A DNA stretch of 64,000 nucleotides from Strigamia acuminata (lineage: Eukaryota): the NCBI GenBank assembly GCA_949358305.1, contig OX442314.1:32116001-32180000 (forward strand), in the 5' to 3' direction. Below the pieces are notes generated by a model. The model was not told the origin of the DNA, made no database searches, and saw only the letters and a program-made list of their open reading frames with translations. Of the stretch, positions 1,217 through 60,908 are shown in pieces. Within the stretch, counting starts at the first letter, position 1. Each line of letters opens with the position of its first letter. The position numbers were made by a program, and so were the translations under genes.

Positions 1217-1218
1217 CG

Positions 1219-27040: not shown

Positions 27041-27050
27041 TCTTGGGAAT

Positions 27051-27258
27051 CCTCACGAATCTTGTGAAATCTCGCAAAATCTCGCAAAATCTCACGAGAA
27101 CTCGTAAAATCTCACGAGAACTCGTAAAATCTCACGAGAACTCGTAAAATCTCACGAGAACTCGTAAAATCTCACGAGAACTCGTAAAATCTCACGAGAA
27201 CTCGTAAAATCTCACGAGAACTCGTAAAATCTCACGAAAACTCGTAAAATCTCACAAG
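27051..27258. repeat. 20-bp minisatellite (CTCACGAGAACTCGTAAAAT), intronic
   Basis: Read directly from the sequence. Confidence 0.95.
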
Positions 27259-32667: not shown

Positions 32668-33686
32668 TGTCGCGCTCAACTCTAACCGTCGCTAACTCGT
32701 GGGTTGATTACTTAATTCGACTAACTCACTACCGCTTTGCTCAAGCGGTTTACCCAAAGAAATGATTACACAGATATAAAAGGTAAAATATAATATAGAT
32801 TTATTCTGTGGGACAATGTACAGATATATCTTATATATATATATATATAAAAGGTAGGTAAAAGGTAAATCGGAATGGGTGAAGGGAAATGGAAAGGTAA
32901 AGGTATGATGAAAGCTGGCTGGAATCGGCGAGGTCGTCTGTTGTCTCGGTCGTGTCCAAGATGGCGTCCTCGTTGTGGCAACGTGGTGTCGTCTTGGGCC
33001 GGCGTGGCAATATGGCGTCCTCGGCTCGTCTCTGGCTGGTCCTTCGGGCTCACGCTGGTCGGGCGCGAGTGAATGCTTAGTTAAAAGGCTTACTTCGGGC
33101 TGTTGTCTAGGTTTTTGTGTGGTGTCCGGCGATCACACAGCGGCGGACTCTTCTGGCTCCCGGCGGTCACACAGCGGCGGGAACGCTCGTCGTGGTTTTA
33201 CTGCAGTTTAGGCTTGTGCGACCGTTTGTCTGCACAACTCGCTAAACTGGAGTGGTTTTTACTATTTCTAGCTGGTGTGCTAAAATAGTGTGGTAATCTT
33301 ATCTCGCAGGTTACTCTGCGGAGTTTGACACTGACCAAACGTACTCACGGTAAATTGTCCTTTGTCCTTGGTCAATCCCAGTATATTTACTTGGGCCTGA
33401 TCTTGTAGGACGACGGGTTTACGTGTGTTTCTCGTTTGATGGTTGTGTTGGTTCTGCCCGCTCAGTGCAAGGCACATTCCTTTGCACAAAGCGGGGTTGA
33501 CAGGTGACCAGAATCACCCAATGGTGGGGTGGACGAGCCATCCCCACTCCCTCAGGGCAGACGCCTGTCCATTGACTAGATGTCAATGCACTGAGGGAAG
33601 GGAGACGCGCTTGCGGCTCCCCTTACACCCGAAACGAGGTCACGAGAGAAACTCTTCGTTGACCCCGGTCCAGTCGGGTCACAACA
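32668..33686 (-). repeat. Element B 3' LTR
   Basis: Direct repeat of 42338-43356; no difference seen by eye. Confidence 0.95.
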
Positions 33687-33722
33687 CTTCCCCCTCCGAG
33701 CTCAGACCGTGGGGCTGAGCGA

Positions 33723-36700
33723 TCACTTCTTTCCTGAGGGACCCGACACTGAGTCCGTCACCTGGGCGTAACTCACTCCAGGGACGGGCGGTTGAGTGCC
33801 GGGTGGCGCGGGTAGATCGCCTACTAGCGCCGAGGACCGATCTCGGGGGTCCTCATGCTCCGTAATGAAGCATAATGCATGGCCGTCAACTGGCTCATGC
33901 GGGGCACGCGTCCTCTCGTGTAACCAAACGCTCGGGATGTAGGCGGAGAAGCCGGTGTTCGTATGCCGGATGGCATTGGCTTCCGCTGGCGTCACTGGCG
34001 CACGGTGGGCTCTCAGCAACCTCTGGTGGAAGATGAGGTCTTTAGTCTTCCGGATCTGGTTGTGAAGCCAGATGAAGACCGATTTGCCTTTGTCCCGCTG
34101 CGCGAGGATAAACCTCCTGGTCGCCGTCGTCATCGAAAGATGGGGAAATTCTTCGATGATTCGCCCGTAATAATCTGGTGGAGGCGGTGCCGGCTGCGGC
34201 TTCTGGGTGGCCGCGGGAATCACGGCTTGTGTCGTTGTCGCCGCTTGGGCCGGTGGAGTCACGGGCGGGGTCGGCTTCGTTCGCTCGACGGACTTGACGG
34301 GTGGTGTTCGGCACAGCAAGCGCTTTGGTCTACCCGCCACTTCGAACAGGGCGGGTCCTTGCGGGGATATCTCCGCAGGCATCGGTGGCGGAATCGGAAC
34401 TCCGCTCGTCGGCGAGATCATCATCTCCACATCCTCTGCCGATTCTTCCGTCTGGATGGTCATGGCGCGTAGTTGTTGGGTAGGCGCCGCCGTCCAGGTG
34501 GCGGAGGTGTAACGAAACGCCGTGCTTCGCAACTTGTACCCCTCAAATTCGGGGTTTACCACATCCCTGGTTAGCTCGTACCGAGTCAACACAGGGTCGG
34601 GCAGAATGGAGCTCCACTCTGCGAGGAGTGCACGGGGAACCTGTACACCCTCTCTGTCCACGACAGACCATGCGGCCATCGCCTGACGCCCTTCTCCGAA
34701 GAGTGCTGGGGTTAGCAGCTGCATCATGACCTTGGTCAATGATAGCTGTAGGCTGCGACGATTCACTGGATTCGATCGCTCTGAATCCGCAGTGAAGGCA
34801 CGCGAGAGCTTACTCATCATCGCCGTTGCCCATTCGATGAAATATCGCTGGGCCTGATCCACACCTCGCAAGGCGGGTGCGGAGACTCTTGGGTCTTCCA
34901 TCACGAAGCGAAACGCTGAGAGCTCGGAGATAGTCGGGTTGGCGGCTTCTCTCGCGAGTCGCGCTTCTTCGTCTCGCCTCTCGAAGAACAGGGCCGAGGA
35001 ACCGGGTCGGGGTCGGCTCGGCCTGTAAATGTCGGTCAAATTGGCTCGACATTCCTGCATAATGCTCTGTCCAACGGGGAGAGGGACTGAGCGGTCGGTG
35101 TGTAAATTCGGCGGATCGCTCGAATTCAACAACGACGGCGGTCGCAGGTTACGGATCGAGGCAGGTACGATATTTTTTGTTGTTTTTTGTGTCTGTACCT
35201 CCTCATTATTGTTTTCTTTTTTATCCGTGTTTTTTGTGTTTGTTTCAGGAGTTTCTCCTGTTTCCCCCCCGACCAAAATTGGATCCGGAACGGATTCAAC
35301 TATCTCGTTTACCGGAGGTGAAGGGGCGTCGAAATACTCCTCGTTGTCACTTGGCGGTGCTTGTTCCGACTCGCCAGCGAACATATCGACGATTTGGCCG
35401 TCAGTTTTAGACTTGACTTGGCCCTTGGCCCACATTTCTTGCGGGAATTCCGGAATGTACGGAGTTAACTCTCGTACCTGGATCGACTTTTGCTCGGTGT
35501 TGTCCTCGAGCTTGCGTAATTTATACGCGTTACCGCCATGCTTGCCGATGATTACATACGGACCATCTCTCTTGTCGGCCAAGCTGGCGGTGATCCCTCT
35601 CGCTGCATTTGAGAGGGTGTGTGCATCTTTCCACACCAAATCATTGATCTCGAAATTCACGAATTTCCCACCGCTTTTATCTTGTAAAATGCGGTCGCGC
35701 ATGTTAAAAATGTGCGCCATCATATGTTTGTATGTGTTTGAAATTGTTTGCTCCAATTTATACACATACTCATGTGGTTTCTCTGGGTCCACCACATTTA
35801 CTGACTCTGCCACTCGTGGGTCCCAAGGCACTCGTAGCTCTCGGGCGAAGTTGAGGTAGGCCGGAGAAAAATCTCTCGTCCTCGAGACTGTTGTTCGTAT
35901 GCTGAACGCGATCTCCCTCAAGTATTCATCCCACCTATTGTGGATGTCAGTGAATATGCTTAGTGCATATTTAATGTCCCTGTTGAGTCGCTCAACGGGA
36001 TTTGTTCTAGGATTGTAGGTCGAAGTATGTGACGCCACAATCCTGAATTTCTCACAAAACTTACCCCAAATTTTCGAGATAAATTGGGGTCCGTTATCGG
36101 ATATTATTTTACGTGGAAATCCGTAACGTAACGCCACGTCGTAGATACATTCAACGATTTTCTCTGCTGAAGGTCTAGCGACGGCGTACAACTCGGGCCA
36201 ACGAGTCGCCACGTCCATTATTACGATAATGTACGCATTTTTATTTCCCGTAACGGGTTTTGGGCCCATCACATCGACGCTTAAACAATCAAAAGGCGCG
36301 TAAGGCCCTAAGAAAATAGTTTCGAATGGTGATTTTCTCCTCGGCTTGCACGCTTGACATCGCTGACATTGGTGGACAAAAAGAGCAATATCTTTTTTCA
36401 TCCCTGTCCAGTGAAAAAGCTGTGTAGCACGATAGAGTGTTCTGCTTACTCCCGCATGGCTCGCAAGCGGGTGCCCGTGTAACAACCACAGCACGCGACC
36501 GATTAAGGAAGCAGGTATTACTACCTTTACTGCGGTGTCTGATTCACTCAAGTCATCTTGGTGATTTGGGTGATGTTTCACTAAAAGGCCGTCATCCAAT
36601 AGGTAATCTATGGATTCGTGCGCATAACGACGCTTCTGCCTTCTGGTCAGATTGGGCGGATATTTTCCTGTCAGTACGAATCTAGCTCTGTCCTGACATT

Positions 36701-39158
36701 TTTTGTCTAATTTTTGTTGCACAATTATTTCCTCCCTTGTCGGGGGATTGCTTTGCATCTGCTTGCCGACATGAGCGTGGAAGGCGCTTAGAAGCGGGTC
36801 ATTTATTCTCCGCTCTAGCTTAAATTCCTTCTTTGCATTTGGGTAATTGTCAGCAGCTGGTTGGTATAACCGCGTCCAGAATCCACAGAATTTTACATCT
36901 GCCGGAGACGCGGTAGGAATTTCATTCATCTTCCTTAAATCCCAACGGTGACAACTCGTAGGGCAATAAATGATGCGGGAGTCATCCTCGCCATCATCGT
37001 CAGCGTCGATTGGATCTGACACTGGTGCCCGTGACAGAGCGTCAGCCACGACGTTATATTTGCCGGGCTTGTATTGAATGGTCAAGTCGCATGCCATCAG
37101 TTCTAACTGCCATCTGGCTAGTCGACCGGCTGGCTCCTTTAATTTCATCAGCCATTGTAACGCTTGATGATCTGTGTGGACCACAAATTTGGTATATTCG
37201 AGATAATCTCTGAATTTCCTTATGGCCCACACAACTGCCAAACACTCCAACTCGGTGGCATTGTAATTCTTTTCAGCGCCTTGGAGTTTGCGACTTATAA
37301 ACATGCACGGCAGGTCTTGTTCGACTCCGTCGCGCACGTGTGTTTGGAGCAACGCCGCTCCTAACCCAACTCTGCTGGCGTCCGTGTGTAATATGAACGG
37401 CCGGTTTAAGTCGGGTAGAGGCATTACGCCGACTTCCGTCAGCATCCTCTTTATTGCATTAAATGCGATGTTGCACTCATTTGACCATACAAATTCGTTT
37501 TCATTCTTCAGGAGGTCGGTAACTGGGGCTGCCACTTCAGCTAGACCCGGTAGCAACCTGCCGAAGAAGTTTATCATTCCCATAAACCGTTGGACACCTT
37601 TAACGTCCTCGGGTGGTGGGAAACGATTAATCGCATCGATTTTTTCGGGGCCAATAGCTAAACCATTGACTCCAATGCGATAACCCAGGAAGGCAAGCTC
37701 CTTTCGACAGAACTTGCTTTTGCCCGGATGCACGTGTAACCCAGCTTTTGCCAGCCGGGTGAGCACTTGGTCGATGTGCTCAATGTGCTCTTCGAATGTT
37801 TTAGAGGCAATAACTATGTCATCTAGGTATGCCCACACAAACTGATGCAGGATATCACCCAATACGCTTTCGATTAGTCTCTGAAAGGTACTGGGAGCAT
37901 TCACTAAACCAAATGGCATGACGTTGAACATCAACCGTCCAATTGGCGAGTAAAATGCTGTTTTTAACTTATCCTCTGGCCTCATCTCAACTTGCCAGTA
38001 TCCCTTCGACAGATCCATCGTCGTAACCCAAGAAAAGGGGCTAAGCTCTCTCAAAATGGATTCGATAGACGGCATCTGTATGGGATCTATTTCTGTCACC
38101 GCGTTTAATGGGCGGTAATCAATGCATAGGCGTGGGTCCGAGCCCGGGCGCATCACGAGCACAACTCGCGTCGCGTATTCTCCCTGGGCCTCGGAGACAA
38201 TGCCACTGTCTAGCATTTCTTGGCACATTTTTTGCACTATTTCACGTTTTTGCGGGTTCATTCCCTTATACGCAACTCGTATAGGTTTATTATCCGTCAA
38301 TTTAATTTCGTGAATAGCCCTATTCGTTCGGCCCGGTTTTTTCGACAGGATCCCCTCATATTTAAGTAGGACCCTTCGTAGGGCTGCCGCTTCGTTTAAT
38401 TCTAAAGCGGCGTCGGCGACAAGCGTTTCCACTACATTGTCCCGTTGCAATTCTGTTACGAATGCTTTAAAATCGTAATCTTGAACGAATTTCTTTAGGC
38501 CTTTCTCCCACTGTGTCTTGTCGGCCGCTTCTTTTACAAGAGCTGGTGGCACGACAATTGCGGGTCTTTCCTTATCATTTCTGATATAATTCCAAGATTT
38601 CGTTATTGGATTGGGTTGTATTTCCATTGACGCCATGAGGTCTAAGCCCAACAGAAAAATTCTGTCGCATGTGGGCAGGACCAGGAAAGGGTGCTGTTCT
38701 ACTCCTCCGAGCCACTCCATGGTCAATAATATAACTCCTTTTGGACGCGCCATTCCGTTGGCGGTTTTTAGACGTATATTTTTATTAACGCCTTTTATCT
38801 TATCGGTGAGACCCAATGATGCTACTATGTCTTCGGAAACGAACGAGCGATCTGCTCCCGAGTCTAGTAGTCCCATAATTTTTTCACGTTCTATTGTCAT
38901 GGGCAACATACATAGGCGGTTGGTGTATTCGACCGCCACGTTGCACATGAAAACACGAAATTCTTCTGTGTCTTCGACTACTTGAGGTAATTCTTCAAGC
39001 AGTAGGTTCGGTTCTTCCGCCTCAGCCTCAGCGTTTGCGGTAATTACCTGCAAAGCGTTGTTGGCCCTGTCTTGAATTTGGGCGTTAGCTATGTCACTAC
39101 CCATTTCTTTGACTGGTGGCGGCTTATCGAACCCTTTGTTAAACCCCTTTTTCTTCAT
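33723..39158 (-). CDS. pol: Element B Pol (PR-RT-RNase H-IN) with a ~450-aa C-terminal extension of unknown function; probably translated by -1 frameshift from gag
   Basis: LLDSGA, YLDD, LHTDAS, HHCC, SDNG, PVER and GPY motifs. The frame stays open upstream to the slippery sites at 39209-39227. Confidence 0.95.
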   Translation of the reverse strand: MKKKGFNKGFDKPPPVKEMGSDIANAQIQDRANNALQVITANAEAEAEEPNLLLEELPQVVEDTEEFRVFMCNVAVEYTNRLCMLPMTIEREKIMGLLDSGADRSFVSEDIVASLGLTDKIKGVNKNIRLKTANGMARPKGVILLTMEWLGGVEQHPFLVLPTCDRIFLLGLDLMASMEIQPNPITKSWNYIRNDKERPAIVVPPALVKEAADKTQWEKGLKKFVQDYDFKAFVTELQRDNVVETLVADAALELNEAAALRRVLLKYEGILSKKPGRTNRAIHEIKLTDNKPIRVAYKGMNPQKREIVQKMCQEMLDSGIVSEAQGEYATRVVLVMRPGSDPRLCIDYRPLNAVTEIDPIQMPSIESILRELSPFSWVTTMDLSKGYWQVEMRPEDKLKTAFYSPIGRLMFNVMPFGLVNAPSTFQRLIESVLGDILHQFVWAYLDDIVIASKTFEEHIEHIDQVLTRLAKAGLHVHPGKSKFCRKELAFLGYRIGVNGLAIGPEKIDAINRFPPPEDVKGVQRFMGMINFFGRLLPGLAEVAAPVTDLLKNENEFVWSNECNIAFNAIKRMLTEVGVMPLPDLNRPFILHTDASRVGLGAALLQTHVRDGVEQDLPCMFISRKLQGAEKNYNATELECLAVVWAIRKFRDYLEYTKFVVHTDHQALQWLMKLKEPAGRLARWQLELMACDLTIQYKPGKYNVVADALSRAPVSDPIDADDDGEDDSRIIYCPTSCHRWDLRKMNEIPTASPADVKFCGFWTRLYQPAADNYPNAKKEFKLERRINDPLLSAFHAHVGKQMQSNPPTREEIIVQQKLDKKCQDRARFVLTGKYPPNLTRRQKRRYAHESIDYLLDDGLLVKHHPNHQDDLSESDTAVKVVIPASLIGRVLWLLHGHPLASHAGVSRTLYRATQLFHWTGMKKDIALFVHQCQRCQACKPRRKSPFETIFLGPYAPFDCLSVDVMGPKPVTGNKNAYIIVIMDVATRWPELYAVARPSAEKIVECIYDVALRYGFPRKIISDNGPQFISKIWGKFCEKFRIVASHTSTYNPRTNPVERLNRDIKYALSIFTDIHNRWDEYLREIAFSIRTTVSRTRDFSPAYLNFARELRVPWDPRVAESVNVVDPEKPHEYVYKLEQTISNTYKHMMAHIFNMRDRILQDKSGGKFVNFEINDLVWKDAHTLSNAARGITASLADKRDGPYVIIGKHGGNAYKLRKLEDNTEQKSIQVRELTPYIPEFPQEMWAKGQVKSKTDGQIVDMFAGESEQAPPSDNEEYFDAPSPPVNEIVESVPDPILVGGETGETPETNTKNTDKKENNNEEVQTQKTTKNIVPASIRNLRPPSLLNSSDPPNLHTDRSVPLPVGQSIMQECRANLTDIYRPSRPRPGSSALFFERRDEEARLAREAANPTISELSAFRFVMEDPRVSAPALRGVDQAQRYFIEWATAMMSKLSRAFTADSERSNPVNRRSLQLSLTKVMMQLLTPALFGEGRQAMAAWSVVDREGVQVPRALLAEWSSILPDPVLTRYELTRDVVNPEFEGYKLRSTAFRYTSATWTAAPTQQLRAMTIQTEESAEDVEMMISPTSGVPIPPPMPAEISPQGPALFEVAGRPKRLLCRTPPVKSVERTKPTPPVTPPAQAATTTQAVIPAATQKPQPAPPPPDYYGRIIEEFPHLSMTTATRRFILAQRDKGKSVFIWLHNQIRKTKDLIFHQRLLRAHRAPVTPAEANAIRHTNTGFSAYIPSVWLHERTRAPHEPVDGHALCFITEHEDPRDRSSALVGDLPAPPGTQPPVPGVSYAQVTDSVSGPSGKK

Positions 39159-39163
39159 GAATG

Positions 39164-39227
39164 GCGCAGACGGTCGAGAAATTATTTCTTCGCCGCCTGC
39201 GCTGACTCGTTTTTTGACTCGTTTTTT
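39164..39227 (-). promoter_or_regulatory. -1 ribosomal frameshift signal of element B
   Basis: A_AAA_AAC occurs twice, then a 6-nt spacer and the stem GCGCAGGCGG...CCGTCTGCGC. Pol is in the -1 frame. Confidence 0.8.
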
Positions 39228-42200
39228 GCCATGGCGAGTTTAATCTCTGCCATCTGCTTCATTATCGCGTCAAACTTAGCGTCTTCTTTCGCTGTTCTTG
39301 GGCACTCATTGGAGTAGTGGCCCGGTTGGTTACACTTGAAACAGCGAATATTTGATTTGTCTCTTGGGGCTTCAGTCGATTTTTTCTTTTCAGGGTCTGC
39401 TTTCGACGGTGGCGTGTAATTTTTCCGAAAATACTTCGGAATTCGACCGGCATTTGGTTTTAACCTGGCGCGAAATTCTTCTACCGCTCTATCTCGATGG
39501 ATGAGATGTACTAGCGGTCCTTCCTCATCGCAACCCGTTGATAAGGTATCGCGATAGCTTCGTATTTCTTCGTCCGTCGAATAATCGTCTTTTTCTTCTT
39601 TTTTGTCTGATTTTCCGGCATCTTGTCCGGCTTCCTCCCCCTCCTTGACCTCCTCCAGTGTCGCTTGCATGGCTGACGCTGTCGGTGCCTTTTTAGGGGC
39701 GGCCAAAGGGTTGGAAGGCAGCGTGGATGTCAGTTTATTTTTTATTTGTAAACCAACGCTAGCTTCTGCCAGCTCCATTATACCGCTAAGATATTCAGTA
39801 GGGCGCATAATTTTATCTGTCGCCCCATATCTTTCCGCACTCAACTTGAGACGTTTAGCGGTTGCTGCTTTCTCCGCTTCTGGTAAAGCGGAATAATATC
39901 TTTTCTCGATATCTATCGTGTTCTCAAACAGGAAGGCGCTCATCTCCTCGTAGCTGCCTCCTGTCGGTGCCCTTTCTTCAAGTAGCACCCTTTGCGAGTA
40001 TTCCGACAAACCGCCGAGAAAGAAAAGGTTGAATCCCGTGGCGTGAAATTCCATCGGGGCCTTTTCGAACAACAATCTGGCGCGAATGTCGTAATCCATT
40101 ATGGTTTCACCAGGCATCTGGCGAAGACCTCGCATCTTTCGGCTCACCTCTTCGGGTGTCTCGCCGTAGCGCAGGTCGAATCTCATTAAAAAGTCGTCCC
40201 AATTGACGCCTTTCAATCCTTGGTACCACTCACGTGCCGAGCCTGTCATTAGCTCGACAATACCGTGGGTGAGCATGTCTCCTACGGTGGCTTTAGTGGC
40301 AGTCTTAATTCGAATTACTTCGTCAAGGAAGCGATCTCCCGCTTTCCATGACCCGTCGAAACGGTTCTGAATATAAAATTGCCACCTAATATTCCCGGTA
40401 ACACTCATGGTGTCACGTCGGGAGACAGCGTATTTTTTCTTTACGCGGTCACCAGTGCTACGATTACGATCGTTTCGTTTGCTCAGATCAATTCCCTCGG
40501 CTTTTAACGAGCCGAGTAGGGCTCTTCCAAGCTCTCCCATCGTATACTGCCGACCCGTCGAATCGGTAAACGCGCTTTGTCGGGGAAGGTCCTGAAACTC
40601 CTCCCGTCGGTGGTCGCTATTTTCCGATCGACGTCGTTTCTCTCTATCGCGCGGAGAGTTGGATCTCTTCCGGCGATTACTTGATTTTTCCTTTCGTCTG
40701 TCGTCGTTGGATGAGGGGTCGGAGCTGGGGTCGGGAGACGGTGAGCGGCGTGGCGGGTTGCGCCGTGAAGAGTTTGACTCTTTCCGGCCCCTACGACGGT
40801 CGTCACGTTCCCTTTCTCTGCGTTCATCGCGTTCTCTTTCCCTTCGTCTTTCTCCGGAACCTCTCTCCGAATCGTGATGACTGGGTGCATTTGACTCCAG
40901 TCCATCTGACGACGAATCACTATTTCCGTAGTGAAAATATTTCGGTCTTTCATCGCGTTTGCCTTCTTCTCGCGAAGAGGTGCGATCATGCGATTGTCTC
41001 CTTGACGACTCGTCGTCTTTAAGGATGGGCACTGGTTGTTGCCACTCAGTCCCTTGTGGATTATCATGCTGTTGGCTTGTGAGAGCTTGCTCTTCATTTC
41101 GCCTAGCATTATTAGCGTTGATTAATCGCGTTATCGCATTATTTGTGGCTGAATCGAGAGCTTGCATGCGGGGCCGAGTTTGTTGTTCTCTGGCCGACGC
41201 ATCTCTCTTGCGCGGAGTAGCTGGTGTTGCTCTCTCCGGCTGGGGTTTGGGTTTGGCCTTCGGCGTGCGCTTTGGGTCTCCCTCTAGGCTCTCGTCGGAC
41301 AGCTCGGATGAACTGACCTCTGGTTTGCGGACGGATTTCGGGTCATCTCGTCGCAATCTGGCCATAAATGCTCGCTCTGCTTCTTGTTGCGAGTGGAAAG
41401 CATATCGATGTGCTCTCAGGGCTCGGTCAACTATTTCTACCTCCTCGGGAGTAGTCGGATTGGGCTGGGTTCTGCCGTACTCGAGAGCTTGCGCTTCTCT
41501 TTCCGCCAGCTTCCTCCGTCTCTCGCGAATGGCTTGACGAGCCTCGTTCTCTGCATCCGCTTCAAATTGAGCGGAATCAACCAATTGTTGAGCGTGTGCA
41601 CCTTCAACAATGGTGATTTGTGGGGATACACTGTGCGCTTTTAAAGCTGCACGTACGATCTGTAACGTTTCGTACACGGTAATTTTCCCCGTCGGAAGGG
41701 TGTATCTCACTCCTTCCGCCTGTGCCAATTGCATCGCATCAATCAAGGTGCCCGAGACGCTGTAAGGCTGGCTCGAAACACGCTTGACAGAGGATGAGTT
41801 GGACTTGTGTCCTTCGGACCTGACCGAAGCTGGGCGGCTTTGCGTAATTGGCGTGTTTAGTGCCGAATTAGCGGTCGTATTTGAGGCCGTCTTTTGTATC
41901 GGAGACGCTGCTTTCGGACTGCCCACCTCGGTGTCGTGCGTTAGACGAGGCGATTGGTTACGGGATAAAACCTCGTTTCCGCTCGTCTCGCCGTCACGGT
42001 TAGAACGCGGCAGTTTGGAGTGAGATTGCTCTTCACCCCGCTCTGTCTCGTCCAATCGCTGCCTCGTCTCGGTGCGAGACGGGTGCGATGCCTCGGATGC
42101 GCTTCTACGATCGGGTTTAGGCTTACGCCGTTTTTGCCTCGCTTCGTGCGCTGAGGCTTTGGGTAAGGGACCTCCAGATCGCAAGTGATAGTCGGCGCCT

Positions 42201-42265
42201 TTACGACTGCCGGCTCTCTTGTTTGCGTCGGAGTCGGAATCTGTTACTCGGGTATTATCTGCCAT
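39182..42265 (-). CDS. gag: Element B Gag (about 1027 aa from ATG 42265)
   Basis: Long low-complexity N-terminus, capsid-like FDGS...AREWY...WDDF...F...Y...Q..GET, and CCHC knuckle CFKCNQPGHYSNEC. Confidence 0.93.
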   Translation of the reverse strand: MADNTRVTDSDSDANKRAGSRKGADYHLRSGGPLPKASAHEARQKRRKPKPDRRSASEASHPSRTETRQRLDETERGEEQSHSKLPRSNRDGETSGNEVLSRNQSPRLTHDTEVGSPKAASPIQKTASNTTANSALNTPITQSRPASVRSEGHKSNSSSVKRVSSQPYSVSGTLIDAMQLAQAEGVRYTLPTGKITVYETLQIVRAALKAHSVSPQITIVEGAHAQQLVDSAQFEADAENEARQAIRERRRKLAEREAQALEYGRTQPNPTTPEEVEIVDRALRAHRYAFHSQQEAERAFMARLRRDDPKSVRKPEVSSSELSDESLEGDPKRTPKAKPKPQPERATPATPRKRDASAREQQTRPRMQALDSATNNAITRLINANNARRNEEQALTSQQHDNPQGTEWQQPVPILKDDESSRRQSHDRTSSREEGKRDERPKYFHYGNSDSSSDGLESNAPSHHDSERGSGERRRERERDERRERERDDRRRGRKESNSSRRNPPRRSPSPDPSSDPSSNDDRRKEKSSNRRKRSNSPRDREKRRRSENSDHRREEFQDLPRQSAFTDSTGRQYTMGELGRALLGSLKAEGIDLSKRNDRNRSTGDRVKKKYAVSRRDTMSVTGNIRWQFYIQNRFDGSWKAGDRFLDEVIRIKTATKATVGDMLTHGIVELMTGSAREWYQGLKGVNWDDFLMRFDLRYGETPEEVSRKMRGLRQMPGETIMDYDIRARLLFEKAPMEFHATGFNLFFLGGLSEYSQRVLLEERAPTGGSYEEMSAFLFENTIDIEKRYYSALPEAEKAATAKRLKLSAERYGATDKIMRPTEYLSGIMELAEASVGLQIKNKLTSTLPSNPLAAPKKAPTASAMQATLEEVKEGEEAGQDAGKSDKKEEKDDYSTDEEIRSYRDTLSTGCDEEGPLVHLIHRDRAVEEFRARLKPNAGRIPKYFRKNYTPPSKADPEKKKSTEAPRDKSNIRCFKCNQPGHYSNECPRTAKEDAKFDAIMKQMAEIKLAMAKNESKNESAQAAKK

Positions 42266-42317
42266 TTCTTGCTTTGGGTATGATGTAATCACAGGTTAGA
42301 ATCAGTTATTCGACTTG

Positions 42318-42335
42318 ATCCCGGACAGGCCCCCA
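42318..42335 (-). promoter_or_regulatory. Primer-binding site, tRNA-Pro-like (element B)
   Basis: TGGGGGCCTGTCCGGGAT next to the 5' LTR. Confidence 0.75.
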
Positions 42336-42337
42336 CG

Positions 42338-43356
42338 TGTCGCGCTCAACTCTAACCGTCGCTAACTCGTGGGTTGATTACTTAATTCGACTAACTCACT
42401 ACCGCTTTGCTCAAGCGGTTTACCCAAAGAAATGATTACACAGATATAAAAGGTAAAATATAATATAGATTTATTCTGTGGGACAATGTACAGATATATC
42501 TTATATATATATATATATAAAAGGTAGGTAAAAGGTAAATCGGAATGGGTGAAGGGAAATGGAAAGGTAAAGGTATGATGAAAGCTGGCTGGAATCGGCG
42601 AGGTCGTCTGTTGTCTCGGTCGTGTCCAAGATGGCGTCCTCGTTGTGGCAACGTGGTGTCGTCTTGGGCCGGCGTGGCAATATGGCGTCCTCGGCTCGTC
42701 TCTGGCTGGTCCTTCGGGCTCACGCTGGTCGGGCGCGAGTGAATGCTTAGTTAAAAGGCTTACTTCGGGCTGTTGTCTAGGTTTTTGTGTGGTGTCCGGC
42801 GATCACACAGCGGCGGACTCTTCTGGCTCCCGGCGGTCACACAGCGGCGGGAACGCTCGTCGTGGTTTTACTGCAGTTTAGGCTTGTGCGACCGTTTGTC
42901 TGCACAACTCGCTAAACTGGAGTGGTTTTTACTATTTCTAGCTGGTGTGCTAAAATAGTGTGGTAATCTTATCTCGCAGGTTACTCTGCGGAGTTTGACA
43001 CTGACCAAACGTACTCACGGTAAATTGTCCTTTGTCCTTGGTCAATCCCAGTATATTTACTTGGGCCTGATCTTGTAGGACGACGGGTTTACGTGTGTTT
43101 CTCGTTTGATGGTTGTGTTGGTTCTGCCCGCTCAGTGCAAGGCACATTCCTTTGCACAAAGCGGGGTTGACAGGTGACCAGAATCACCCAATGGTGGGGT
43201 GGACGAGCCATCCCCACTCCCTCAGGGCAGACGCCTGTCCATTGACTAGATGTCAATGCACTGAGGGAAGGGAGACGCGCTTGCGGCTCCCCTTACACCC
43301 GAAACGAGGTCACGAGAGAAACTCTTCGTTGACCCCGGTCCAGTCGGGTCACAACA
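42338..43356 (-). repeat. Element B 5' LTR
   Basis: TG...CA termini, adjacent to the PBS. Confidence 0.95.
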
Positions 43357-43360
43357 CGTA

Positions 43361-43685: not shown

Positions 43686-43687
43686 AG

Positions 43688-43705
43688 TGGAGGTTCTACC
43701 GAGAT
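43688..43705 (+). promoter_or_regulatory. Primer-binding site, tRNA-Gln-like (element D)
   Basis: TGGAGGTTCTACCGAGAT differs at one position from TGGAGGTTCCACCGAGAT. Confidence 0.85.
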
Positions 43706-49725: not shown

Positions 49726-52700
49726 TCATCGCTCTCCTCTGCGAAGAGCCGGCAGCACTCCTCTGCATGGGCGGAGGATCACGGGTGGCACTGCCGGTGG
49801 CGGCGGTGGTAAATCCGGGGGCAGAGAGGTTGTCAGATCCGCAGGATTTTGTCGCTCGTTGATGAAGTACTGCGGGTGACTGCCGGCTGGCTCGCCAACC
49901 AACCCCGTACGCTCATGGATCCAAATCCGGGTAGACGCGGGGAATCGATCGGGGACGAGTCGGATCCTTCGCGACTCGGCGCTCGATCCGGGTTTCCTGT
50001 GGGCCCGTAGGATACGGCGATGGAAGACGGCGTCCATGGTGGATCGGGCTTCTCTGTTTAGCCATTTGAGGATTGATTCGCCGTGATCGTCGGAGTCAAT
50101 GATGCGTTGTCGCGTGAACTCCGACATCTGAAGGAAGGGGTATTCCACTCCCAGCCTCAAATAAAGCTGCGCTGCTGGGGGCGGCGGAGGCGATGGTGGG
50201 AGCGGAATCTCCATTGGGCTCTCCAACGGTGGCGTAGCCGGCTCTGCAGAGAGAGCGGCCAGCCCTGCCGCTGGTGGTGAAGGAGAGGGCAGCGGAGGAG
50301 TTCGGGGTCCTCGCTTGGAACGCTTCGGAATCAATATGGGTCGATTCGCGTGTCGCTTCTCCTTCGGGAATACCGGCTTTGGGGTCGGTATGTATGGTTG
50401 GACCGCCGCCTCTGGGGGGGCGGTCTCGATGGCCTGTGGAAGGCTCGCCGCCGTTCCCGGTATCTCCGGAACCTCCCGAATTGTTCGCAACAAGGAAGGG
50501 TGGACTCCGGGGTTCCGGTAGCGGAATGCCAACGAACGCATCTTTGAAAACTGTAGGCCTGGGTTTTCCGTATTTCTGGCCAGGTCGAAGCGCAGCGAGG
50601 CGGGCTCAGGAGTCCATCCGGCCCATACCTGGTACAACGCCCGAGGAAGGTGAACTCCCTCACGGTCGACGATTGTCCAGGCCGCCATAGCTTGCCGACT
50701 GTCCAAGAAGACGCCCAGGGATAGCAGCTGGGCCAGTACGTTCGTCACAGCCAAATTCAAACTGCTCCGATGGCAGGGGTGAGCGCGGTCCGGATTGTCA
50801 CTGAATTGCTGTGACAACGTCCGCATCTGTTCGATCGCCCAGTTGATGTGGTGAGTTTGGGCGGCGTCGGCCTGTCGTATGGCCAACTCGGCAATCGCGG
50901 GGTTCTCGTATTCGGCCAGATATTCTTGTAACTCGCTGAGTGGGGGATAGGCCGCTTCACGCCGGCATCGAGCGTCCATCTCTCGCTGGGCGTACCATTC
51001 GGCGTTGCGATAAGGTCGACACACTCGTGGCGTTGGGGGTGACGGTGGACGGCCCAGCCCGGGTAGATTATCGTATCTGACCCGCTTCGGAGCTGGATCC
51101 CCCACCGGAATCATCCGGGGAGGGGTCCAAGCGGTCACGGCTGGGTTTGTACCCTCGAGGAGTGGCGGCCATCGCGATTGCACTTGTGGGGGCACAAGCG
51201 CGGTGGGCACAGCCGGTGTTGAGCCCGACGGCCGGTTGGCCGCGTATCCTCGGAAGGCGTTCTTCAATGCTACGGCCAGATCCTGTTTTGTAACCGGCCC
51301 ATCTTTGTCCGACTCATCTGGGGACATTTGCTCTTCCGTCAACTCTCCCAAATCAATCTCTGCTTGGCGCCTGGACGGTCCAGCCGTGGGTCCGAGACTC
51401 TGGGGTTCGGACCGTTTCGCGGCGGCCATCTCTCGCTCCTTCTCTAATCCCTTAGCTATCAGGGATTGTGCTCGCAACTTCTGACGTACTTTGCGCTTTC
51501 GATTCCTCCGGGTGCTGGCTGCGACGGATCTTCGTTGGGCCGTCCTCTGGGGGACGTCCGTCGGAGAATTCGGTCTCTGGTGTGATGAGACGGTTCGTCG
51601 CGACGAGGATTGATCTGACGACTGTGTGGTAATCGCCATGAACAACGAGGATCTTTTCTTTCCTCGATCTTGGTGTGTCTCGGTCCTCGCAGCCCAGTGG
51701 GCGGAAGATTCGACTGTTCGCTCAGCCCGCGCGTCGTCTGGCGAGGCAGGCTCGAGCGTTACTACTCGGCGACACTCCGAGCGCACGACAACTCGAGTTC
51801 GGGAACTGGAGCTGCTCGAGCGGCTGCGGTAGTCGCGGCTCGTTGACGGGCCGGCCTCTATTGGGGAGACGGCCTGTCTTCTTCGTGCGGGTCCGCGTGG
51901 GGCGGACTCCGCCGGACGCTTCGATCTTCTGTGATGGCGGCGACTTCCCAGGATACCAGCGTGGTATAACTGCCACATCTCAGACTGCGTGGCCGTAAAA
52001 TTCGCCGGCGGTATCCATCTGGGTGTCAGATGATTTTCTTCGATGTCGCGAAGCCATCTACGGATTTCTTCGGGGGAGAAACCGTTTCTCTCGAGAACTC
52101 GGGTTACTCCGTGAGTCTCGGTGCGCTTTAAGCGTTTGATCTCGTCGTCCACTATTCTCTGGCGGGCTGCCAAGGTCGGGGCCTCGCTCCACCTATGGGA
52201 GGTGTGCAGCTCGGCCACCGTGCCTGGGTAAGCCTCTTCCAGGTACCCGGAGTAAACGGGGCTCGGCGGATCCGCATCGGGTGGGATCCGCGGCCCCACT
52301 CGCTCCCTCATCTCCTTCGTCATGCACTCGACCAGCGTTTTTGATCGCTCGAATTTTTCCTCGAGGGTCCTGGAATACATCAATCGGATTTTCCAGGCGC
52401 TGGTCTCTGCAGGATAGGCCTGCCGCAGGTAAATCGGCAGGGCTCCGCGAAAGATGTTGTTGGCGGTTGACGCCGTCGGAGGCAGGGCGTCCCACGATTC
52501 TAGCGGGTCGACCTGAATAATTTTAGATCACAAGATTAATATAATAAATCCCAGTTAACGATGGGGATCAGAAATATGCTCAAGATCGACGGTGGCAGCA
52601 ACTCCTTTCTTTTGTTGCGGCCGTCGGTCTTATTTTCTTGTTTCGCAGTTCTGCGATGATCTCCGCCGTCGTAGCGCTGATCCAACACTACTTTTGAACT

Positions 52701-53190
52701 CAGGTGATCCGCTTTTTTGGAAGGGGTCGCAGGCAAAACCGATCGTTAAATTTTAATTTCTTACGTTAAACTTTTTTATTTTAACTCTAATCGTATTTTA
52801 ATTTATTACGATGTTTAAATTTAAAAGAAAGAAAACCTTTAGTTTTGGTTTTGGTTTGCCACGACGCCATTCCGCGAACACTTCCTTTGTTCTAGTTTTT
52901 TGGCGGCCTTGACTCCGAGGTGAATCTGGGTCCACTCTCGGGTTTTTAGCCAGCCTTAAATCAACAATAAAACAGAAAGAAATATATCAGTCACAAGTCA
53001 CGCTCCAATCTGGGTTGGATGCAACAGATTCAAAGAATTATGTGATTTCTCTGGGGAAATCACACTAATTTACCTGCAACGGCGGTTGTTCGTCCCAATT
53101 CTCATCTTCTTCTGCATTTACGATTAGGCCGTCGCTCTCGTCTCTCGACGATGCGCTCGGCTCTAATCGTGGGTTGCGTCGATCGGCCAT
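49726..53190 (-). CDS. Element C ORF3: predicted two-exon accessory gene (53074-53190 + 49726-52512; 967 aa) of unknown function
   Basis: The 885-aa ORF extends upstream to the acceptor TTATTCAG|GTC at 52513. An upstream 39-codon ATG exon ends in CAG|GTAAAT, and both junctions are phase 0. The C-terminal half is homologous to the Pol extension of element B. Confidence 0.8.
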
Positions 53191-53570
53191 TTCAATTTAG
53201 GAAAGAGAAGTTTTTGTTTGAGAGGTCTTTGTTTTCTCTTTGGGGAGAAGCAAAAAACACGTCTCGTCGTGTTAAAAACAGTCGGAAACTGGGCCTATCG
53301 ACGCTGAGAATTGTGGGTCTCGAACGCGTCTCGTATTTTGCGAGATCCGCCGTGCTGGCAATGACGCTACGGGGTCGACCGCGTGGTTTCGTTGTCACGT
53401 GGTCGCCCGATACGTCATAACTTCTCGTCTGTTAGTGGTGACTGCGACAATTCGTTGCGAAGTTTGGACTTAGCCAAATTTTCGCGTCTCAACATGTGCA
53501 GCAGCTCTCGTAAGTAAATCTTTTTATTTTACAAGGCCTCCGCTCCATGTTATCACATTTTCTTTTATTT

Positions 53571-56500
53571 TTAGTTCTTCCCCACGACTTTGCCGTCCCG
53601 AATGAACGGATTATTGCTTCGTCGTGGTCGAAGGTTGATTTTCGACGTGCTCGTAGATCGTGACTCTACTTGCTCGTTCATCTCCGATGTGTTGGCATTT
53701 TTCTCATTATTAATTTTTTTATTTTCCATTTCAGAAGTACATTCTTCTGCTTCCTCCCTCTCCGAAATTGCTTGCTCCGGCTGAGTTGGAGCCTCGTCGG
53801 CTGGGGATTCGGCGTCGAAGAATTCATCCTCGTTTTCCGCTATATTTTCAGCTTCATTTGTTTTTTGGAACGTGTCGACCACGGTGCCCCCTTGGCCGCT
53901 GTGTGTCTGACCTTCCAGCCAAATTTCCTGTGGAAATTCTGGCAGATATGGCCTTAAATCTCGGCCATGTATCGACTGAAAATTTTTGTTGTCCTCTAGG
54001 CGGCGTAGTTGGTATGCGTTGCCTCCGTGTTCGGCCACAATTACGTAGGGACCGTCCCTCTTGTCGGCTAAACCGGCGGCGATGCCCCTCGCTGCATTGG
54101 ACAACGTGTGTGCCTCCTTCCACACTAGATCATTCACTTTAAAGTTCGCGAAAGCGAGATCGCCTTCTTTATCTGCGATTCTCTCTCTCATGTTGAAAAT
54201 ATGCGCCATCATATGCTGGTACGTGTCGGATATAGTCTGTTCCAACCGGCACACGTACTCATGTGGGCTCGACGGGTCTAATACGTTAACAGCTTCGGCA
54301 ACGCGTGGGTCCCATGGCATCCTTAATTCGCGGGCGAAGTTGAGGTACGCCGGTGAGAATTCGCGTGTTCGTGACACGGTTGAGCGAATGCTGAAAGCGA
54401 TTTCTCGCAGGTATTCGTCCCATCGATTGTGAATGTCGGTGAATACTGTCAGCGCATATTTTATATCTTTATTTAATCTCTCGACTGGGTTTGTCTGAGG
54501 ATTATATGTGGAGGTGTTCGATGCATCCATTTTAAATTTCCTACAGAAGTCCTTATATATTCTTGATCGGAATTGGGGGCCGTTATCCGAAATGAGTTTT
54601 CTGGGAAACCCAAATCGCATTGCCACGTCGTAAAGGCACTCGACTATGTTTTCAGCCGAGGGCTTCGCGAGGGCGTACAGCTCCGGCCATCGGGTGGCCA
54701 CGTCCATAATTACGAGAATATACATGTTCTTGTTTCCCGTTGTGGGCTTGGGGCCCATCAAGTCTATGCTTAAGCAGTCAAACGGTGCGTAGGGTCCGAG
54801 AGACATGGCGTTTCTGGCTACTTTATCTCGCGGTCTGCATGCTTGGCACCGGGGGCAGTGTCGGATAAATTTCGTTATCTTTTGCCGCGCGCCCGGCCAG
54901 AAGAAAAGTTGTTTTACTCGATAAAGGGTCCTCGCCACGCCAGAATGGCTGGCGAGCGGGTGTCCGTGCATCAGCCACAACAGTCGGGTGTGCAGTGATG
55001 CCGGCACGACCACTTTAACCGAGTTTCCCGCTCCGCTGAGGTCATCTTGAAACGTCGGGTGGTATTTTACCAGGAGTTCATCATCTATGAGGTAGCTTGT
55101 TGCTTCTTTGACGAACTGTTTCCGGCGGTGTGGGTTTGTCATCCCTTCCGGAAATTCGCCGTTCAGCAAATATTGCGTTATAATTTGACATTTTGTGTCT
55201 GCTGCCTGGTGTTCGACGAACTCACGTCTCGTGGGTGGAGCGTATTGTGTTTTTTCTTCAATTTTTGCTGTGAAGGCGCGTAGTAGTGTTTTGTGGGTTT
55301 CTCCGGGGGGCGGAGATTGAATTTCGGATGTTGAATTGTTTGTCCCAGCTGGCTGGTATGTTCGAGTCCAAAAACCACAAAACGTTCTATCTTCAGGCTC
55401 CATCACTGGTAGCTCGTTCGCCTTTCGCAAACGCCATATTCTCCGTGGAGTCGGGCAGTACAAGAGGTGGGTGTCGTCCTCGCCGTCGTCGTCTGGTCCT
55501 TGGGGGTCAGAGGCTGGGGCTCTCGAGAGGGCGTCGGCCACATGATTGTACTTCCCGGGGCGGTACGTAATTGTTATATCGCACGCCATTAACTCCAGTT
55601 GCCATCGTGCGAGTCGGCCGGAGGGTTCCTTGAGCTTCATCAACCAGCTTAGTGCCTGGTGATCTGTCTGAACCTCGAAGTTCGTGTACTCCAGATAGTC
55701 GCGAAATTTCCGAACTGCCCAAATTACGGCTAGGCATTCTAGTTCCGTTGCCGTATAATTTTTCTCCGCGCCCTGTATTTTTCTGCTTATAAACATACAG
55801 GGTACTTCTTGCGAGATTCCGTTGTACACGTGGGTCTGCAGAAGGGCTGCACCCAGTCCGATTTTACTCGCGTCGGTGTGCAACACGAACGGTCGGTTTA
55901 GGTCCGGCAATGGCATCTTTTCGACGTCAGCCAGCATTTGCTTGATAGTGCTAAATGCGGCCTCGCACTGGACCGTCCACTCAAACTCTTTATCCGTTCG
56001 TAAGAGATCCGTTATAGGCGCGGCCACTTCAGCCAGACCAGAGAGTAGTCGGCCGAAGAAATTGACCATGCCCATGAATCTCTGGACACCTTTTATATCT
56101 TCGGGGGCGGGGAATCCGTTTATTGCTTTGACTTTTTCGGGGTCAATCGCGATTCCCTCGACTCCTATTCGATATCCTAGGAAGGCAAGCTCTTTCCTGC
56201 AAAACTTGCTCTTCCCTGGATGGATGTGGAGTCCTGCCTTGGCTAGGCGAGAGACCACTCTATCGATGTGGTCTATGTGTTCTTCGAATGTGTCCGACGT
56301 TATTATGATGTCGTCGAGATACGCCCACACGAAGTCGTGCAGCATATCTCCCAACACGCTTTCGATCAGTTTCTGGAACGTGCTCGGGGCGTTTACAAGC
56401 CCGAACGGCATCACGTTGAACATTAGTCTTCCTATCGGGGAGTAGAAAGCCGTTTTCAGTTTGTCTTCGGGTTTTAGCTCCACTTGCCAATACCCCTTTG

Positions 56501-57602
56501 ACAGGTCCATGGTGGTTACCCACTTGAACGGGCTCAGTTCCCGGAGGATCGAGTCTATAGACGGCATCTGAATCGGGTCTATAACCGTTATCGCGTTCAG
56601 GGGGCGATAATCAATGCATAGTCGAGGTTCCGAGCCTGGACGCATCACCAGGACGATCCGCATGGCGTATTCGCCCAGGGCTTGCGTTACTATGCCCTTG
56701 TCGAGCATGTCTTGGCACATTTGCGTCACGATGTCTCTTTTCTGGGGGTTCATCCCCTTGTAAGGCACTCGAATCGGCTTGTCTGTGGTTAAGACTATTT
56801 CGTGTGTTGCTTCCGTCGTTCGACCAGGTGTCTTGGTCAGAATTCTTTCATGCTTTCGAAGCACTCGCCTTAGTAGCGATGCCTCGTTAACACGCAGTGC
56901 TGCCTCCTCGACCAGGGTGTCCACGACGTTACTCCTCTGTAATTCCAGAGTGAAGGCTGCGAAATCGTAATCTTGGACGAATTTTCGCAATCCTCTTCCG
57001 TATTCCTCTTTGTCCTTGGCTTCGTCCAGTAATTTTTGGGGAACTACGGGGACTGATCGTTCTCCCTCGGGACTTATCCAGTTCCATGAACGGGTTATCG
57101 GGTTTGGCTGAATTTTCAGTTTCGCCATGATGTCCATCCCTAGGAGGAATACTTTGTCGTGGGATGGCAAGACTATGAAGGGGTGGGACAGGTTCCCCCC
57201 CGTCCAGTCGATCATGATGCGAACTACGCCCTTCGGCTTGACGTAGCCGTTGGCGGTGAGCAATTCTACGTTCGCGTTCACTTGTGCCACCTTCTTTCCA
57301 ATATCCAAGTCTTTTACTATATCTTCGGATATGAATGAACGATCCGCTCCTGAATCCAGTAGACCGAACAATTTTTGGTTTTCTATCTCCACTGGCAGCA
57401 TACACAGAGTTTCGCAATGTGCTTTCGTGACATTGCAGTGAAATACGCGTAATGTCTGGGGCTCAACCTCCAGATTGAACGGAAGGTCCGTCCAATCCAT
57501 GTCGACCTCCGGTTTCGTTCTCACTTGCATACTCGTTAACGTCACTTTTTCCTCCTTCTTCGGAACGATCTGTATGCGGTCTTTGATCTGTGCCTCTGCC
57601 AA
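53571..57602 (-). CDS. pol: Element C Pol (PR-RT-RNase H-IN), -1 frame relative to gag
   Basis: LLDSGA, YLDD, LHTDAS, HHCC, SDNG and GPY motifs; strongly similar to element B Pol. The frame is open up to the slippery site at 57701-57707. Confidence 0.96.
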   Translation of the reverse strand: MAEAQIKDRIQIVPKKEEKVTLTSMQVRTKPEVDMDWTDLPFNLEVEPQTLRVFHCNVTKAHCETLCMLPVEIENQKLFGLLDSGADRSFISEDIVKDLDIGKKVAQVNANVELLTANGYVKPKGVVRIMIDWTGGNLSHPFIVLPSHDKVFLLGMDIMAKLKIQPNPITRSWNWISPEGERSVPVVPQKLLDEAKDKEEYGRGLRKFVQDYDFAAFTLELQRSNVVDTLVEEAALRVNEASLLRRVLRKHERILTKTPGRTTEATHEIVLTTDKPIRVPYKGMNPQKRDIVTQMCQDMLDKGIVTQALGEYAMRIVLVMRPGSEPRLCIDYRPLNAITVIDPIQMPSIDSILRELSPFKWVTTMDLSKGYWQVELKPEDKLKTAFYSPIGRLMFNVMPFGLVNAPSTFQKLIESVLGDMLHDFVWAYLDDIIITSDTFEEHIDHIDRVVSRLAKAGLHIHPGKSKFCRKELAFLGYRIGVEGIAIDPEKVKAINGFPAPEDIKGVQRFMGMVNFFGRLLSGLAEVAAPITDLLRTDKEFEWTVQCEAAFSTIKQMLADVEKMPLPDLNRPFVLHTDASKIGLGAALLQTHVYNGISQEVPCMFISRKIQGAEKNYTATELECLAVIWAVRKFRDYLEYTNFEVQTDHQALSWLMKLKEPSGRLARWQLELMACDITITYRPGKYNHVADALSRAPASDPQGPDDDGEDDTHLLYCPTPRRIWRLRKANELPVMEPEDRTFCGFWTRTYQPAGTNNSTSEIQSPPPGETHKTLLRAFTAKIEEKTQYAPPTRREFVEHQAADTKCQIITQYLLNGEFPEGMTNPHRRKQFVKEATSYLIDDELLVKYHPTFQDDLSGAGNSVKVVVPASLHTRLLWLMHGHPLASHSGVARTLYRVKQLFFWPGARQKITKFIRHCPRCQACRPRDKVARNAMSLGPYAPFDCLSIDLMGPKPTTGNKNMYILVIMDVATRWPELYALAKPSAENIVECLYDVAMRFGFPRKLISDNGPQFRSRIYKDFCRKFKMDASNTSTYNPQTNPVERLNKDIKYALTVFTDIHNRWDEYLREIAFSIRSTVSRTREFSPAYLNFARELRMPWDPRVAEAVNVLDPSSPHEYVCRLEQTISDTYQHMMAHIFNMRERIADKEGDLAFANFKVNDLVWKEAHTLSNAARGIAAGLADKRDGPYVIVAEHGGNAYQLRRLEDNKNFQSIHGRDLRPYLPEFPQEIWLEGQTHSGQGGTVVDTFQKTNEAENIAENEDEFFDAESPADEAPTQPEQAISEREEAEECTSEMENKKINNEKNANTSEMNEQVESRSTSTSKINLRPRRSNNPFIRDGKVVGKN

Positions 57603-57655
57603 GGCATGACCTGCGGGTCCAGTGTGATATTTCTTCTTTTTAATTTCCGCGGCTG

Positions 57656-57707
57656 GCGCAGACGAAGCTGAATTTATTTTGGCGACGCCTGCGCTTGGAA
57701 GTTTTTT
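57656..57707 (-). promoter_or_regulatory. -1 ribosomal frameshift signal of element C
   Basis: A_AAA_AAC, 6-nt spacer, stem GCGCAGGCG...CGTCTGCGC. Confidence 0.8.
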
Positions 57708-60906: not shown

Positions 60907-60908
60907 CG

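What the first reader, a model, noticed from the sequence alone, without database searches (positions are those of the whole stretch)
33723..35150. The same two-domain module is fused in frame to integrase in element B
Seen: B Pol continues about 450 aa beyond the point where C Pol stops (RNLRPP in B, KINLRPRR in C). The extension aligns with C ORF3 in two blocks. Block 1: EAANPTISEL / EAAYPPLSEL, SLQLSLTKVMMQLL / SLNLAVTNVLAQLL, RQAMAAWSVVDREGVQVPRAL / RQAMAAWTIVDREGVHLPRAL, KLRSTAFRY / KMRSLAFRY. Block 2: DLIFHQRLLRAHR / DAVFHRRILRAHR, VWLHERT / IWIHERT. Conservation between elements with dissimilar LTRs implies selection on the protein. Inference: fusion to IN suggests a role in the integration complex, such as targeting, analogous to chromodomains. 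Alternatively B has an in-frame internal deletion joining pol to ORF3.
Basis: partly seen in the sequence, partly recalled or inferred. Interest (0 to 1): 0.82.

Follow-up and report, generated by a model that had tools for sequence, protein, structure and literature searches.

The report
Deletion-made integrase fusion in jumping gene
This jumping-gene copy has its integrase joined in frame to half of an unnamed extra gene, but sister copies keep the two apart, so the fusion is likely a one-off internal deletion rather than a new targeting device; the extra gene itself is conserved and resembles no family we searched.

Summary
Element B (Ty3/gypsy, minus strand, LTRs identical) has one open frame, 33723-39239, whose last ~470 aa match the C-terminal half of element C's separate ORF3 (33% over 473 aa, E 2e-59). 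Codon-position identities show purifying selection on both blocks.

The integrase-targeting reading is not supported. Contigs from three public runs (two studies) leave the window's sequence at the junction from both sides. Pol-side contigs continue elsewhere below 35140; module-side contigs arrive from elsewhere above 35149. The sides overlap by 10 bp. In run X3 the only contig covering 35090-35129 is unfused. A small fused sub-lineage is not excluded, because the X1/X2 tables were cut.

What stays interesting is ORF3: a soluble-looking two-domain accessory protein with no Pfam, PDB or fold match and one weak outside homologue, in the centipede Strigamia maritima (E 4.7e-5).

The parts
42338..43356 (-). 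Element B 5' LTR (TG..CA ends)
   Evidence: identical to the 3' LTR, 1020/1020 in the blastn match; ends and 4-bp target duplication 43357-43360 / 32664-32667
39182..42295 (-). B gag (1037 aa stop to stop; Retrotrans_gag, zf-CCHC)
35150..39239 (-). B pol: PR-RT-RH-IN(H2C2, rve, weak SH3) plus acidic tail; -1 frame relative to gag, two A AAA AAC heptamers in the overlap
   Evidence: 63% identical to C Pol over 1378 columns; frameshift use is inferred
35140..35149 (-). Junction: 10-bp stretch shared by the pol side and the ORF3 side of unfused copies; likely deletion breakpoint
   Evidence: loose ends at 35140/35143/35149 (pol side) and 35149/35150 (module side) in runs X1, X2, X3
34482..35042 (-). 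Block 1, about 185 aa, predicted mostly helical domain of ORF3
   Evidence: 41% to C; weak homologue in Strigamia T1IVY2; model pLDDT 46
34191..34481 (-). Pro/Thr-rich linker (20% Pro)
33810..34190 (-). Block 2, about 125 aa, predicted alpha+beta domain of ORF3
   Evidence: 40% to C; model pLDDT 49; no outside homologue among the proteins held
33687..33722 (-). Short 3' UTR with polypurine tract
   Evidence: X3 record 19 (724 nt, no gaps) runs from block 2 through here into the LTR
32668..33686 (-). Element B 3' LTR
53571..57713 (-). Element C pol (comparison: ends with its own stop)
52528..53570 (-). Element C spacer between pol and ORF3, with an ATG at 53190 and GT donor-like sites at 53073 and 52836 (possible small exons; untested)
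49726..52527 (-). Element C ORF3 (933 aa stop to stop): N-terminal region, basic Ser/Arg-rich region, block 1, Pro-rich linker, block 2

Best explanation
Element B is a Ty3/gypsy retrotransposon copy whose integrase is joined in frame to the rear half of a normally separate extra gene, likely because an internal deletion jumped between two copies of a 10-base repeat. Shown: the fused frame here, unfused relatives in three runs, the 10-bp overlap. Inferred: normal family B is built like C (gag, pol with its own stop, spacer, ORF3); about 2.5 kb was lost (end of pol, spacer, front half of ORF3); the likeliest route is a template switch by reverse transcriptase in the round that made this copy or its parent, since the LTRs are still identical; the frame is kept simply because the repeat sits in the same codon phase on both sides. 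In this copy the module could only be made as a tail on Gag-Pol, which is probably an accident. The blocks are conserved because ORF3 has a job of its own. My best guess for that job (about 0.3, untested) is a separately expressed, probably spliced, soluble nuclear accessory protein that binds the element's RNA or chromatin through its basic region and recruits partners through the two folded domains.
For: (600 bp around the junction; 572, 161 and 43 contigs laid from X1, X2, X3). Pol-side contigs run on into other sequence at 35140 (X1, 7 contigs; X3, 1 contig with 163 loose letters), 35143 (X3, 1) and 35149 (X2, 1). Module-side contigs come from other sequence at 35149 (X1 1, X2 1, X3 1) and 35150 (X2 2). 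X3 record 21 (321 nt, depth 1366) follows 35041-35149 with 6 differences and has 212 unrelated letters upstream; X3 depth in bins 35090-35129 is exactly 1366, so no other X3 contig lies there. 0 of the 24 listed pieces bridges the junction. By eye, the pol-side loose ends resemble C's own pol tail. The window's letters next to the junction are a minority by summed depth (7% and 5% in X1, 21% and 10% in X2, 0 in X3). A 10-nt overlap at a random join is about 1e-6. B's interior is 2580 nt shorter than C's, and the matching span in C is 2459 nt. None of 66 integrase relatives of 1010-3217 aa carries either block. [quoted passage not shown]
Against: One search showed only 24 of 777 pieces and 16 of 28 loose-end rows, so fused contigs in X1 or X2 may be hidden. 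X2 record 9 (depth 2881, against about 50-120 for the lowest-depth X2 contigs) carries the window's letters up to 35137, three bases short of the junction, so the window's haplotype is probably multi-copy and could be a fused sub-lineage. Contigs drop rare variants and summed depth is not copy number. The join keeps the whole integrase and both blocks and stays in frame, which is also what selection would keep. The same paper reports repeats at only about 40% of HIV-1 junctions and argues for DNA-repair routes, so the template-switch step is one of two routes. The ORF3 function guess rests on composition only.
Confidence: 0.8

Rival explanations
1. The deletion is older than this copy and founded a fused sub-lineage that has kept transposing, either carried passively by intact helpers or because the integrase-module fusion works.
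For: Window haplotype beside the junction is at depth 2881 in X2 and is 5-21% of summed depth in X1/X2; gag and pol are intact and LTRs identical; integrase-borne targeting domains have precedent (chromoviruses; a captured MBD in centipede Copia elements, PMC6673714 passages).
Against: No listed piece bridges the junction (0 of 24 shown); absent from X3's contigs; the 10-bp overlap explains site and frame without selection.
Confidence: 0.14
2. The fusion is the normal state of family B and a chromodomain-like targeting device.
For: Stop-free frame in a very young copy; conserved blocks.
Against: Unfused forms on both sides of the junction in 3 of 3 runs, the only form seen in X3; C keeps the module in a separate ORF; no chromodomain, PHD or MBD Pfam hit.
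Confidence: 0.03
3. The junction is an assembly or library artefact: a chimeric join at a short repeat inside a high-copy family.
For: The family is deep and polymorphic in the runs; the fused junction was not seen in any listed contig piece.
Against: The window has no N and assembles nested elements with exact LTR pairs and target duplications, which suggests long-read quality (inference); the listed pieces are a small part of those laid.
Confidence: 0.03

Closest known systems
Sense additional ORFs between pol and the 3' LTR (aORF-3S; PMC7264820, first of three parts read)
   Same: ORF3 lies in sense between pol and the polypurine tract, is kept in two divergent families and shows protein-level selection.
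   Different: The reviewed examples are env-like, often with transmembrane segments, and mostly from plants; this one looks soluble and matches no Pfam family.
Non-envelope ORF3s of bdelloid rotifer LTR retrotransposons (PMC5408684, abstract and outline)
   Same: Animal LTR elements with a third ORF that is not an envelope.
   Different: Those are recognisable GDSL esterases or DEDDy exonucleases; no such Pfam hit here.
Chromoviruses, and CopiaMBD elements of Strigamia and spiders (PMC6673714, passages)
   Same: An extra domain in the same reading frame as retrotransposon enzymes, proposed to guide integration.
   Different: Those domains are standard parts of their families and are known chromatin or methyl-DNA readers; here the fusion is missing from sister copies and the domains are unnamed.
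Internally deleted proviruses with short direct repeats at the junction (10.64898/2026.03.31.715508, passages)
   Same: Large internal deletion between short repeats with both LTRs kept.
   Different: Here the join happens to be in frame and leaves gag and the enzyme domains of pol whole.
Errantivirus env and sORF2/FAST-like proteins (PMC13524379 passages; 10.1101/2025.03.14.642691 passages)
   Same: Third gene in arthropod Ty3/gypsy elements.
   Different: No env family hit, few cysteines and sequons, far longer than the 60-210 aa sORF2 range, no clear transmembrane segment in B.

Membership tests
Ty3/gypsy LTR retrotransposon (Metaviridae) | LTRs with TG..CA ends, short target duplication, PBS and PPT | tested here: met
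   4-bp duplication; which tRNA primes was not tested
Ty3/gypsy LTR retrotransposon (Metaviridae) | gag, then pol in the order PR-RT-RH-IN | tested here: met
   Pfam
Ty3/gypsy LTR retrotransposon (Metaviridae) | Placement in a named clade by RT tree | not tested
   no named references held; nearest named integrase relatives are insect and spider proteins at 31-37%
Chromovirus-type integrase fusion | Chromodomain after integrase | tested here: not met
   no Chromo hit in Pfam at E 0.1 or E 1
Chromovirus-type integrase fusion | Fusion is the standard form of the family | tested here: not met
   unfused forms in 3 of 3 runs
Chromovirus-type integrase fusion | Fold of a chromatin-reader domain | tested here: inconclusive
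   models pLDDT 46 and 49; best Z 8.5 (rmsd 2.2, 86 aligned, helical bundle) and 4.5 (rmsd 2.8, 58 aligned)
Chromovirus-type integrase fusion | Domain directs the integration site | not testable with these tools
   needs insertion-site maps or binding assays
Errantivirus env | Env family match | tested here: not met
   0 Pfam families for C ORF3 and the B extension
Errantivirus env | C-terminal transmembrane anchor, Cys-rich glycosylated ectodomain | tested here: not met
   max 19-residue hydropathy 1.07 in B; 1.75 in C, mid-block 1 and not C-terminal; 1-2 sequons, 3 and 6 Cys; simple window scan only
Errantivirus env | Signal peptide | not testable with these tools
   true N-terminus of ORF3 is unknown without RNA
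sORF2/FAST-like | 60-210 aa with one transmembrane helix | tested here: not met
   ORF3 is 933 aa stop to stop; criteria
aORF-3S (sense additional ORF) | Sense ORF between pol and 3' LTR | tested here: met
   C ORF3; in B relatives the module abuts the PPT (record 19) and is separate from pol
aORF-3S (sense additional ORF) | Present in most copies and conserved | tested here: inconclusive
   conserved B vs C; covered in all bins of X1-X3, but contig depth cannot give the share of copies
aORF-3S (sense additional ORF) | Expressed from a spliced or separate transcript | not testable with these tools
   no RNA holder listed

The most novel reading that the evidence does not exclude
The deletion created an integrase carrying two previously undescribed domains, and that fused form has since spread as its own sub-lineage because the domains tether the integration complex: a chromodomain-style fusion caught at birth, from a myriapod-restricted accessory gene.
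Probability: 0.07. Interest if true: 0.7.

Novelty: new member of a known kind. Interest (0 to 1): 0.3.

Why it matters
As it stands it is a caution: an in-frame fusion in one young copy is not evidence of function until sister copies are checked. It also shows a simple route, one deletion at an in-phase repeat, by which accessory domains can land on an integrase tail. The lasting item is ORF3, a large, selected, non-envelope accessory gene in an apparently high-copy animal Ty3/gypsy lineage, with two domains that have no named relative. If the fused form proved to be spreading, the fused and unfused copies in one genome would be a natural experiment on how integration-targeting domains arise.

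Tried and rejected
No whole genome is held, so copies could not be aligned directly. Module searches that found nothing usable: word-index search, 0 hits among 7995 scored, lengths 261-832; profile search of longer proteins, only P0010, itself in the query, among 7992 scored; metagenome and viral contigs with block 1, 0 of 214 and 0 of 73 candidates; with the integrase, 1 distant locus of 118 (L001, 25%, not followed) and 0 of 36; PDB sequences, best E 1.2 and none; ESM Atlas, no usable hit by features and all TM scores by query under 0.5. The deep HMMER search used block 1 only; block 2 had no search of that reach. Of its 3 hits I dropped P0008 and P0009: their scores are sums of many repeat stretches under 5 bits each. 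Fold searches on the two low-confidence models gave only generic helical matches; block 1 was not searched against viral structures. No RNA holder listed. Run X4 covers the element thinly; its loose ends at 35212/35245 sit on a 33-bp A/T-rich match and were set aside. One X1 joint 34919-35114 at depth 12 was not followed. A suspected internal repeat in the front of ORF3 failed (158 of 2000 shuffles reached the score); no acceptor passed my crude filter in the C spacer. No complex prediction was run: the fusion is not standard and the alignments have 2-3 rows. Literature: of 8 searches, four bore on this ORF3 and their listings showed no description of it; subscription journals and Repbase are not covered. 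Troyka (PMC12440569, abstract) rejected: it has CG..CG ends and 3-bp duplications.

Full report
1. The observation. The window is eukaryotic-looking DNA dense in LTR elements; no whole genome is held. Element B lies on the minus strand between LTRs 42338-43356 and 32668-33686, identical over the blastn match, with a 4-bp target duplication, a PBS and a PPT. It has gag (39182-42295) and a 1838-aa frame (33723-39239) with PR, RT, RH and IN. Element C (LTRs 820/820) has gag, pol with its own stop, a 1043-bp spacer and a 933-aa ORF3. B and C Pol are 63% identical up to NLRP. B's last ~470 aa match C ORF3's rear half at 33% over 473 aa, E 2e-59, in two blocks of 41% and 40% around a Pro-rich linker. 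Second codon positions are best kept (0.63, 0.64), third positions worst (0.38, 0.35), and four-fold sites are saturated. Among 23 listed variant sites in the module from public runs, 11 are synonymous and none is a stop, each tested singly; one search listed only 40 of 1127 rows.

2. Is the fusion fixed? Four public runs of one coded organism hold the element; two more listed runs hold next to none of it. Laid on 31000-44000, X1-X3 cover all 30 bins deeply. Laid on 34850-35449 (X4 left out as thin), they split at one place. Pol-side contigs continue into other sequence at 35140 (X1, 7 contigs; X3, 1), 35143 (X3, 1) and 35149 (X2, 1). Module-side contigs arrive from other sequence at 35149 (X1, X2, X3, one each) and 35150 (X2, two). 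The two sides share 35140-35149. In X3 one 321-nt contig accounts for all depth at 35090-35129 and has 212 unrelated letters upstream of 35149, so X3's contigs hold no fused form. None of the 24 listed pieces bridges the junction. By eye the pol-side loose ends resemble C's pol tail. The three runs are at most three samples in two studies, and one may be the window's source.

3. Limits of that test. The tables were cut (753 pieces and 12 loose-end rows hidden). Contigs drop rare variants and depth is not copy number. The window's letters at 35101 and 35108 make up 7% and 5% of summed depth in X1, 21% and 10% in X2, and none in X3. One X2 contig with the window's letters, at depth 2881, stops at 35137, so a fused sub-lineage remains possible. 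I did not see the stop codon or whole ORF3 of an unfused B copy.

4. How it most likely arose. A 10-nt overlap at a random join has a chance near 1e-6. B's interior is 2580 nt shorter than C's, and C spans 2459 nt between the matching points, so about 2.5 kb was probably lost. Short repeats at deletion junctions are taken as a mark of reverse-transcription errors in retroviruses, although the same paper finds them at only about 40% of HIV-1 junctions and argues for repair routes too (passages). With LTRs still identical, loss during or shortly before this copy's birth is likeliest (inference). The repeat is in the same codon phase on both sides, which is enough to explain the frame. Expression of the tail would depend on the gag-pol -1 frameshift (two A AAA AAC heptamers; use inferred).

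5. What the module is. Pfam has no match, nor PDB sequences, the Atlas or contig collections. HMMER over 1.84 billion representatives with block 1 gave 3 hits; two are repeat artefacts and one, P0010, is a single 96-residue match at E 4.7e-5. It is UniRef T1IVY2, an uncharacterised protein of the centipede Strigamia maritima. It scores 39.4 bits against 0.5 reversed and at most 6.8 among the 662 of 2000 shuffles that were scored, and lacks block 2. Its genomic context is unknown. None of 66 integrase relatives carries either block. The host is therefore probably an arthropod, perhaps a myriapod (inference). AlphaFold models are poor (pLDDT 46 and 49) and fold searches are uninformative. ORF3 has no clear membrane anchor, few cysteines and a basic, Ser-rich region (R+K 22%, S 16% in aa 190-400). 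My working guess is a soluble nuclear accessory protein, probably from a spliced message; this is weakly grounded.

6. Comparison with what is known. B is a Ty3/gypsy element by structure and domain order. ORF3 works like a sense additional ORF between pol and the 3' LTR (PMC7264820, part 1 of 3 read); non-envelope ORF3s are known in rotifers (PMC5408684, abstract). It fails the tests for env (PMC13524379 passages) and sORF2 (passages). It fails two chromovirus tests: no chromodomain, and the fusion is not standard. Searches listed no paper on this ORF3; Repbase and subscription journals were not searchable, and I opened no supplements (the errantivirus table of PMC13524379 could hold related elements). 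Earlier notes from other genomes describe other unnamed ORFs downstream of pol and pointed me to the review; I did not test them. Searches found no notes on this sequence.

7. Verdict. The fusion is an ordinary deletion product, with a 0.14 chance of being a spreading sub-lineage and about half of that for a working one. ORF3 is a new, unnamed member of a known kind of add-on. Interest 0.3.

Noticed in passing
window 31332-43687 and 62109-63771: B is inserted inside one copy of a 1.66-kb repeat (99.85-100% identical to the other copy) that looks like the LTR of an outer element; that element's interior holds C and a weakly gag-like 449-aa ORF at 46918-48267. A very recent nest of insertions.
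   Followed up: partly
window 42175-42200 (B gag start region) and 60730-60760 (C gag start region), approximate: Both Gags share YHLRS near the N-terminus although the surrounding sequence differs. The Y-x-x-R spacing matches the invariant Y537/R540 of the foamy-virus Gag chromatin-binding motif (PMC6042332, passages). Resemblance only; a nucleosome tether in Gag would be a more conventional targeting candidate than the fusion.
   Followed up: partly
window 52514-53190: C spacer has an ATG-started acidic 39-codon stretch ending at a CAG/GT site, AT-rich stretches and a CAG just before the ORF3 frame; ORF3 may be multi-exon.
   Followed up: partly
window 35156-35183: A more diverged B-like subfamily leaves the window's pol tail a little earlier and also does not run into the module (loose ends in X1 and X2).
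   Followed up: no
window 42319-42336 and 60890-60907: B and C have nearly the same primer-binding site; it looks like the complement of a tRNA-Pro 3' end (recalled, not tested).
   Followed up: no
window 6552-13037: Intact BEL/Pao element with identical 578-bp LTRs and a 1764-aa ORF.
   Followed up: no
window 1-2037: 5' end of a C-family sibling, LTR 92% identical to C's.
   Followed up: no
window 13551-15246 and 20353-22048; 26558-27279: A 1.7-kb direct repeat pair at 99.9% with no long ORF between them (possible non-autonomous LTR element), and 10/20-bp tandem arrays.
   Followed up: no
P0011-P0066: Most of the nearest integrase relatives end in an RGRP (AT-hook-like, label recalled) tail, which B and C lack; B and C have an acidic tail ending in NLRP instead.
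   Followed up: no
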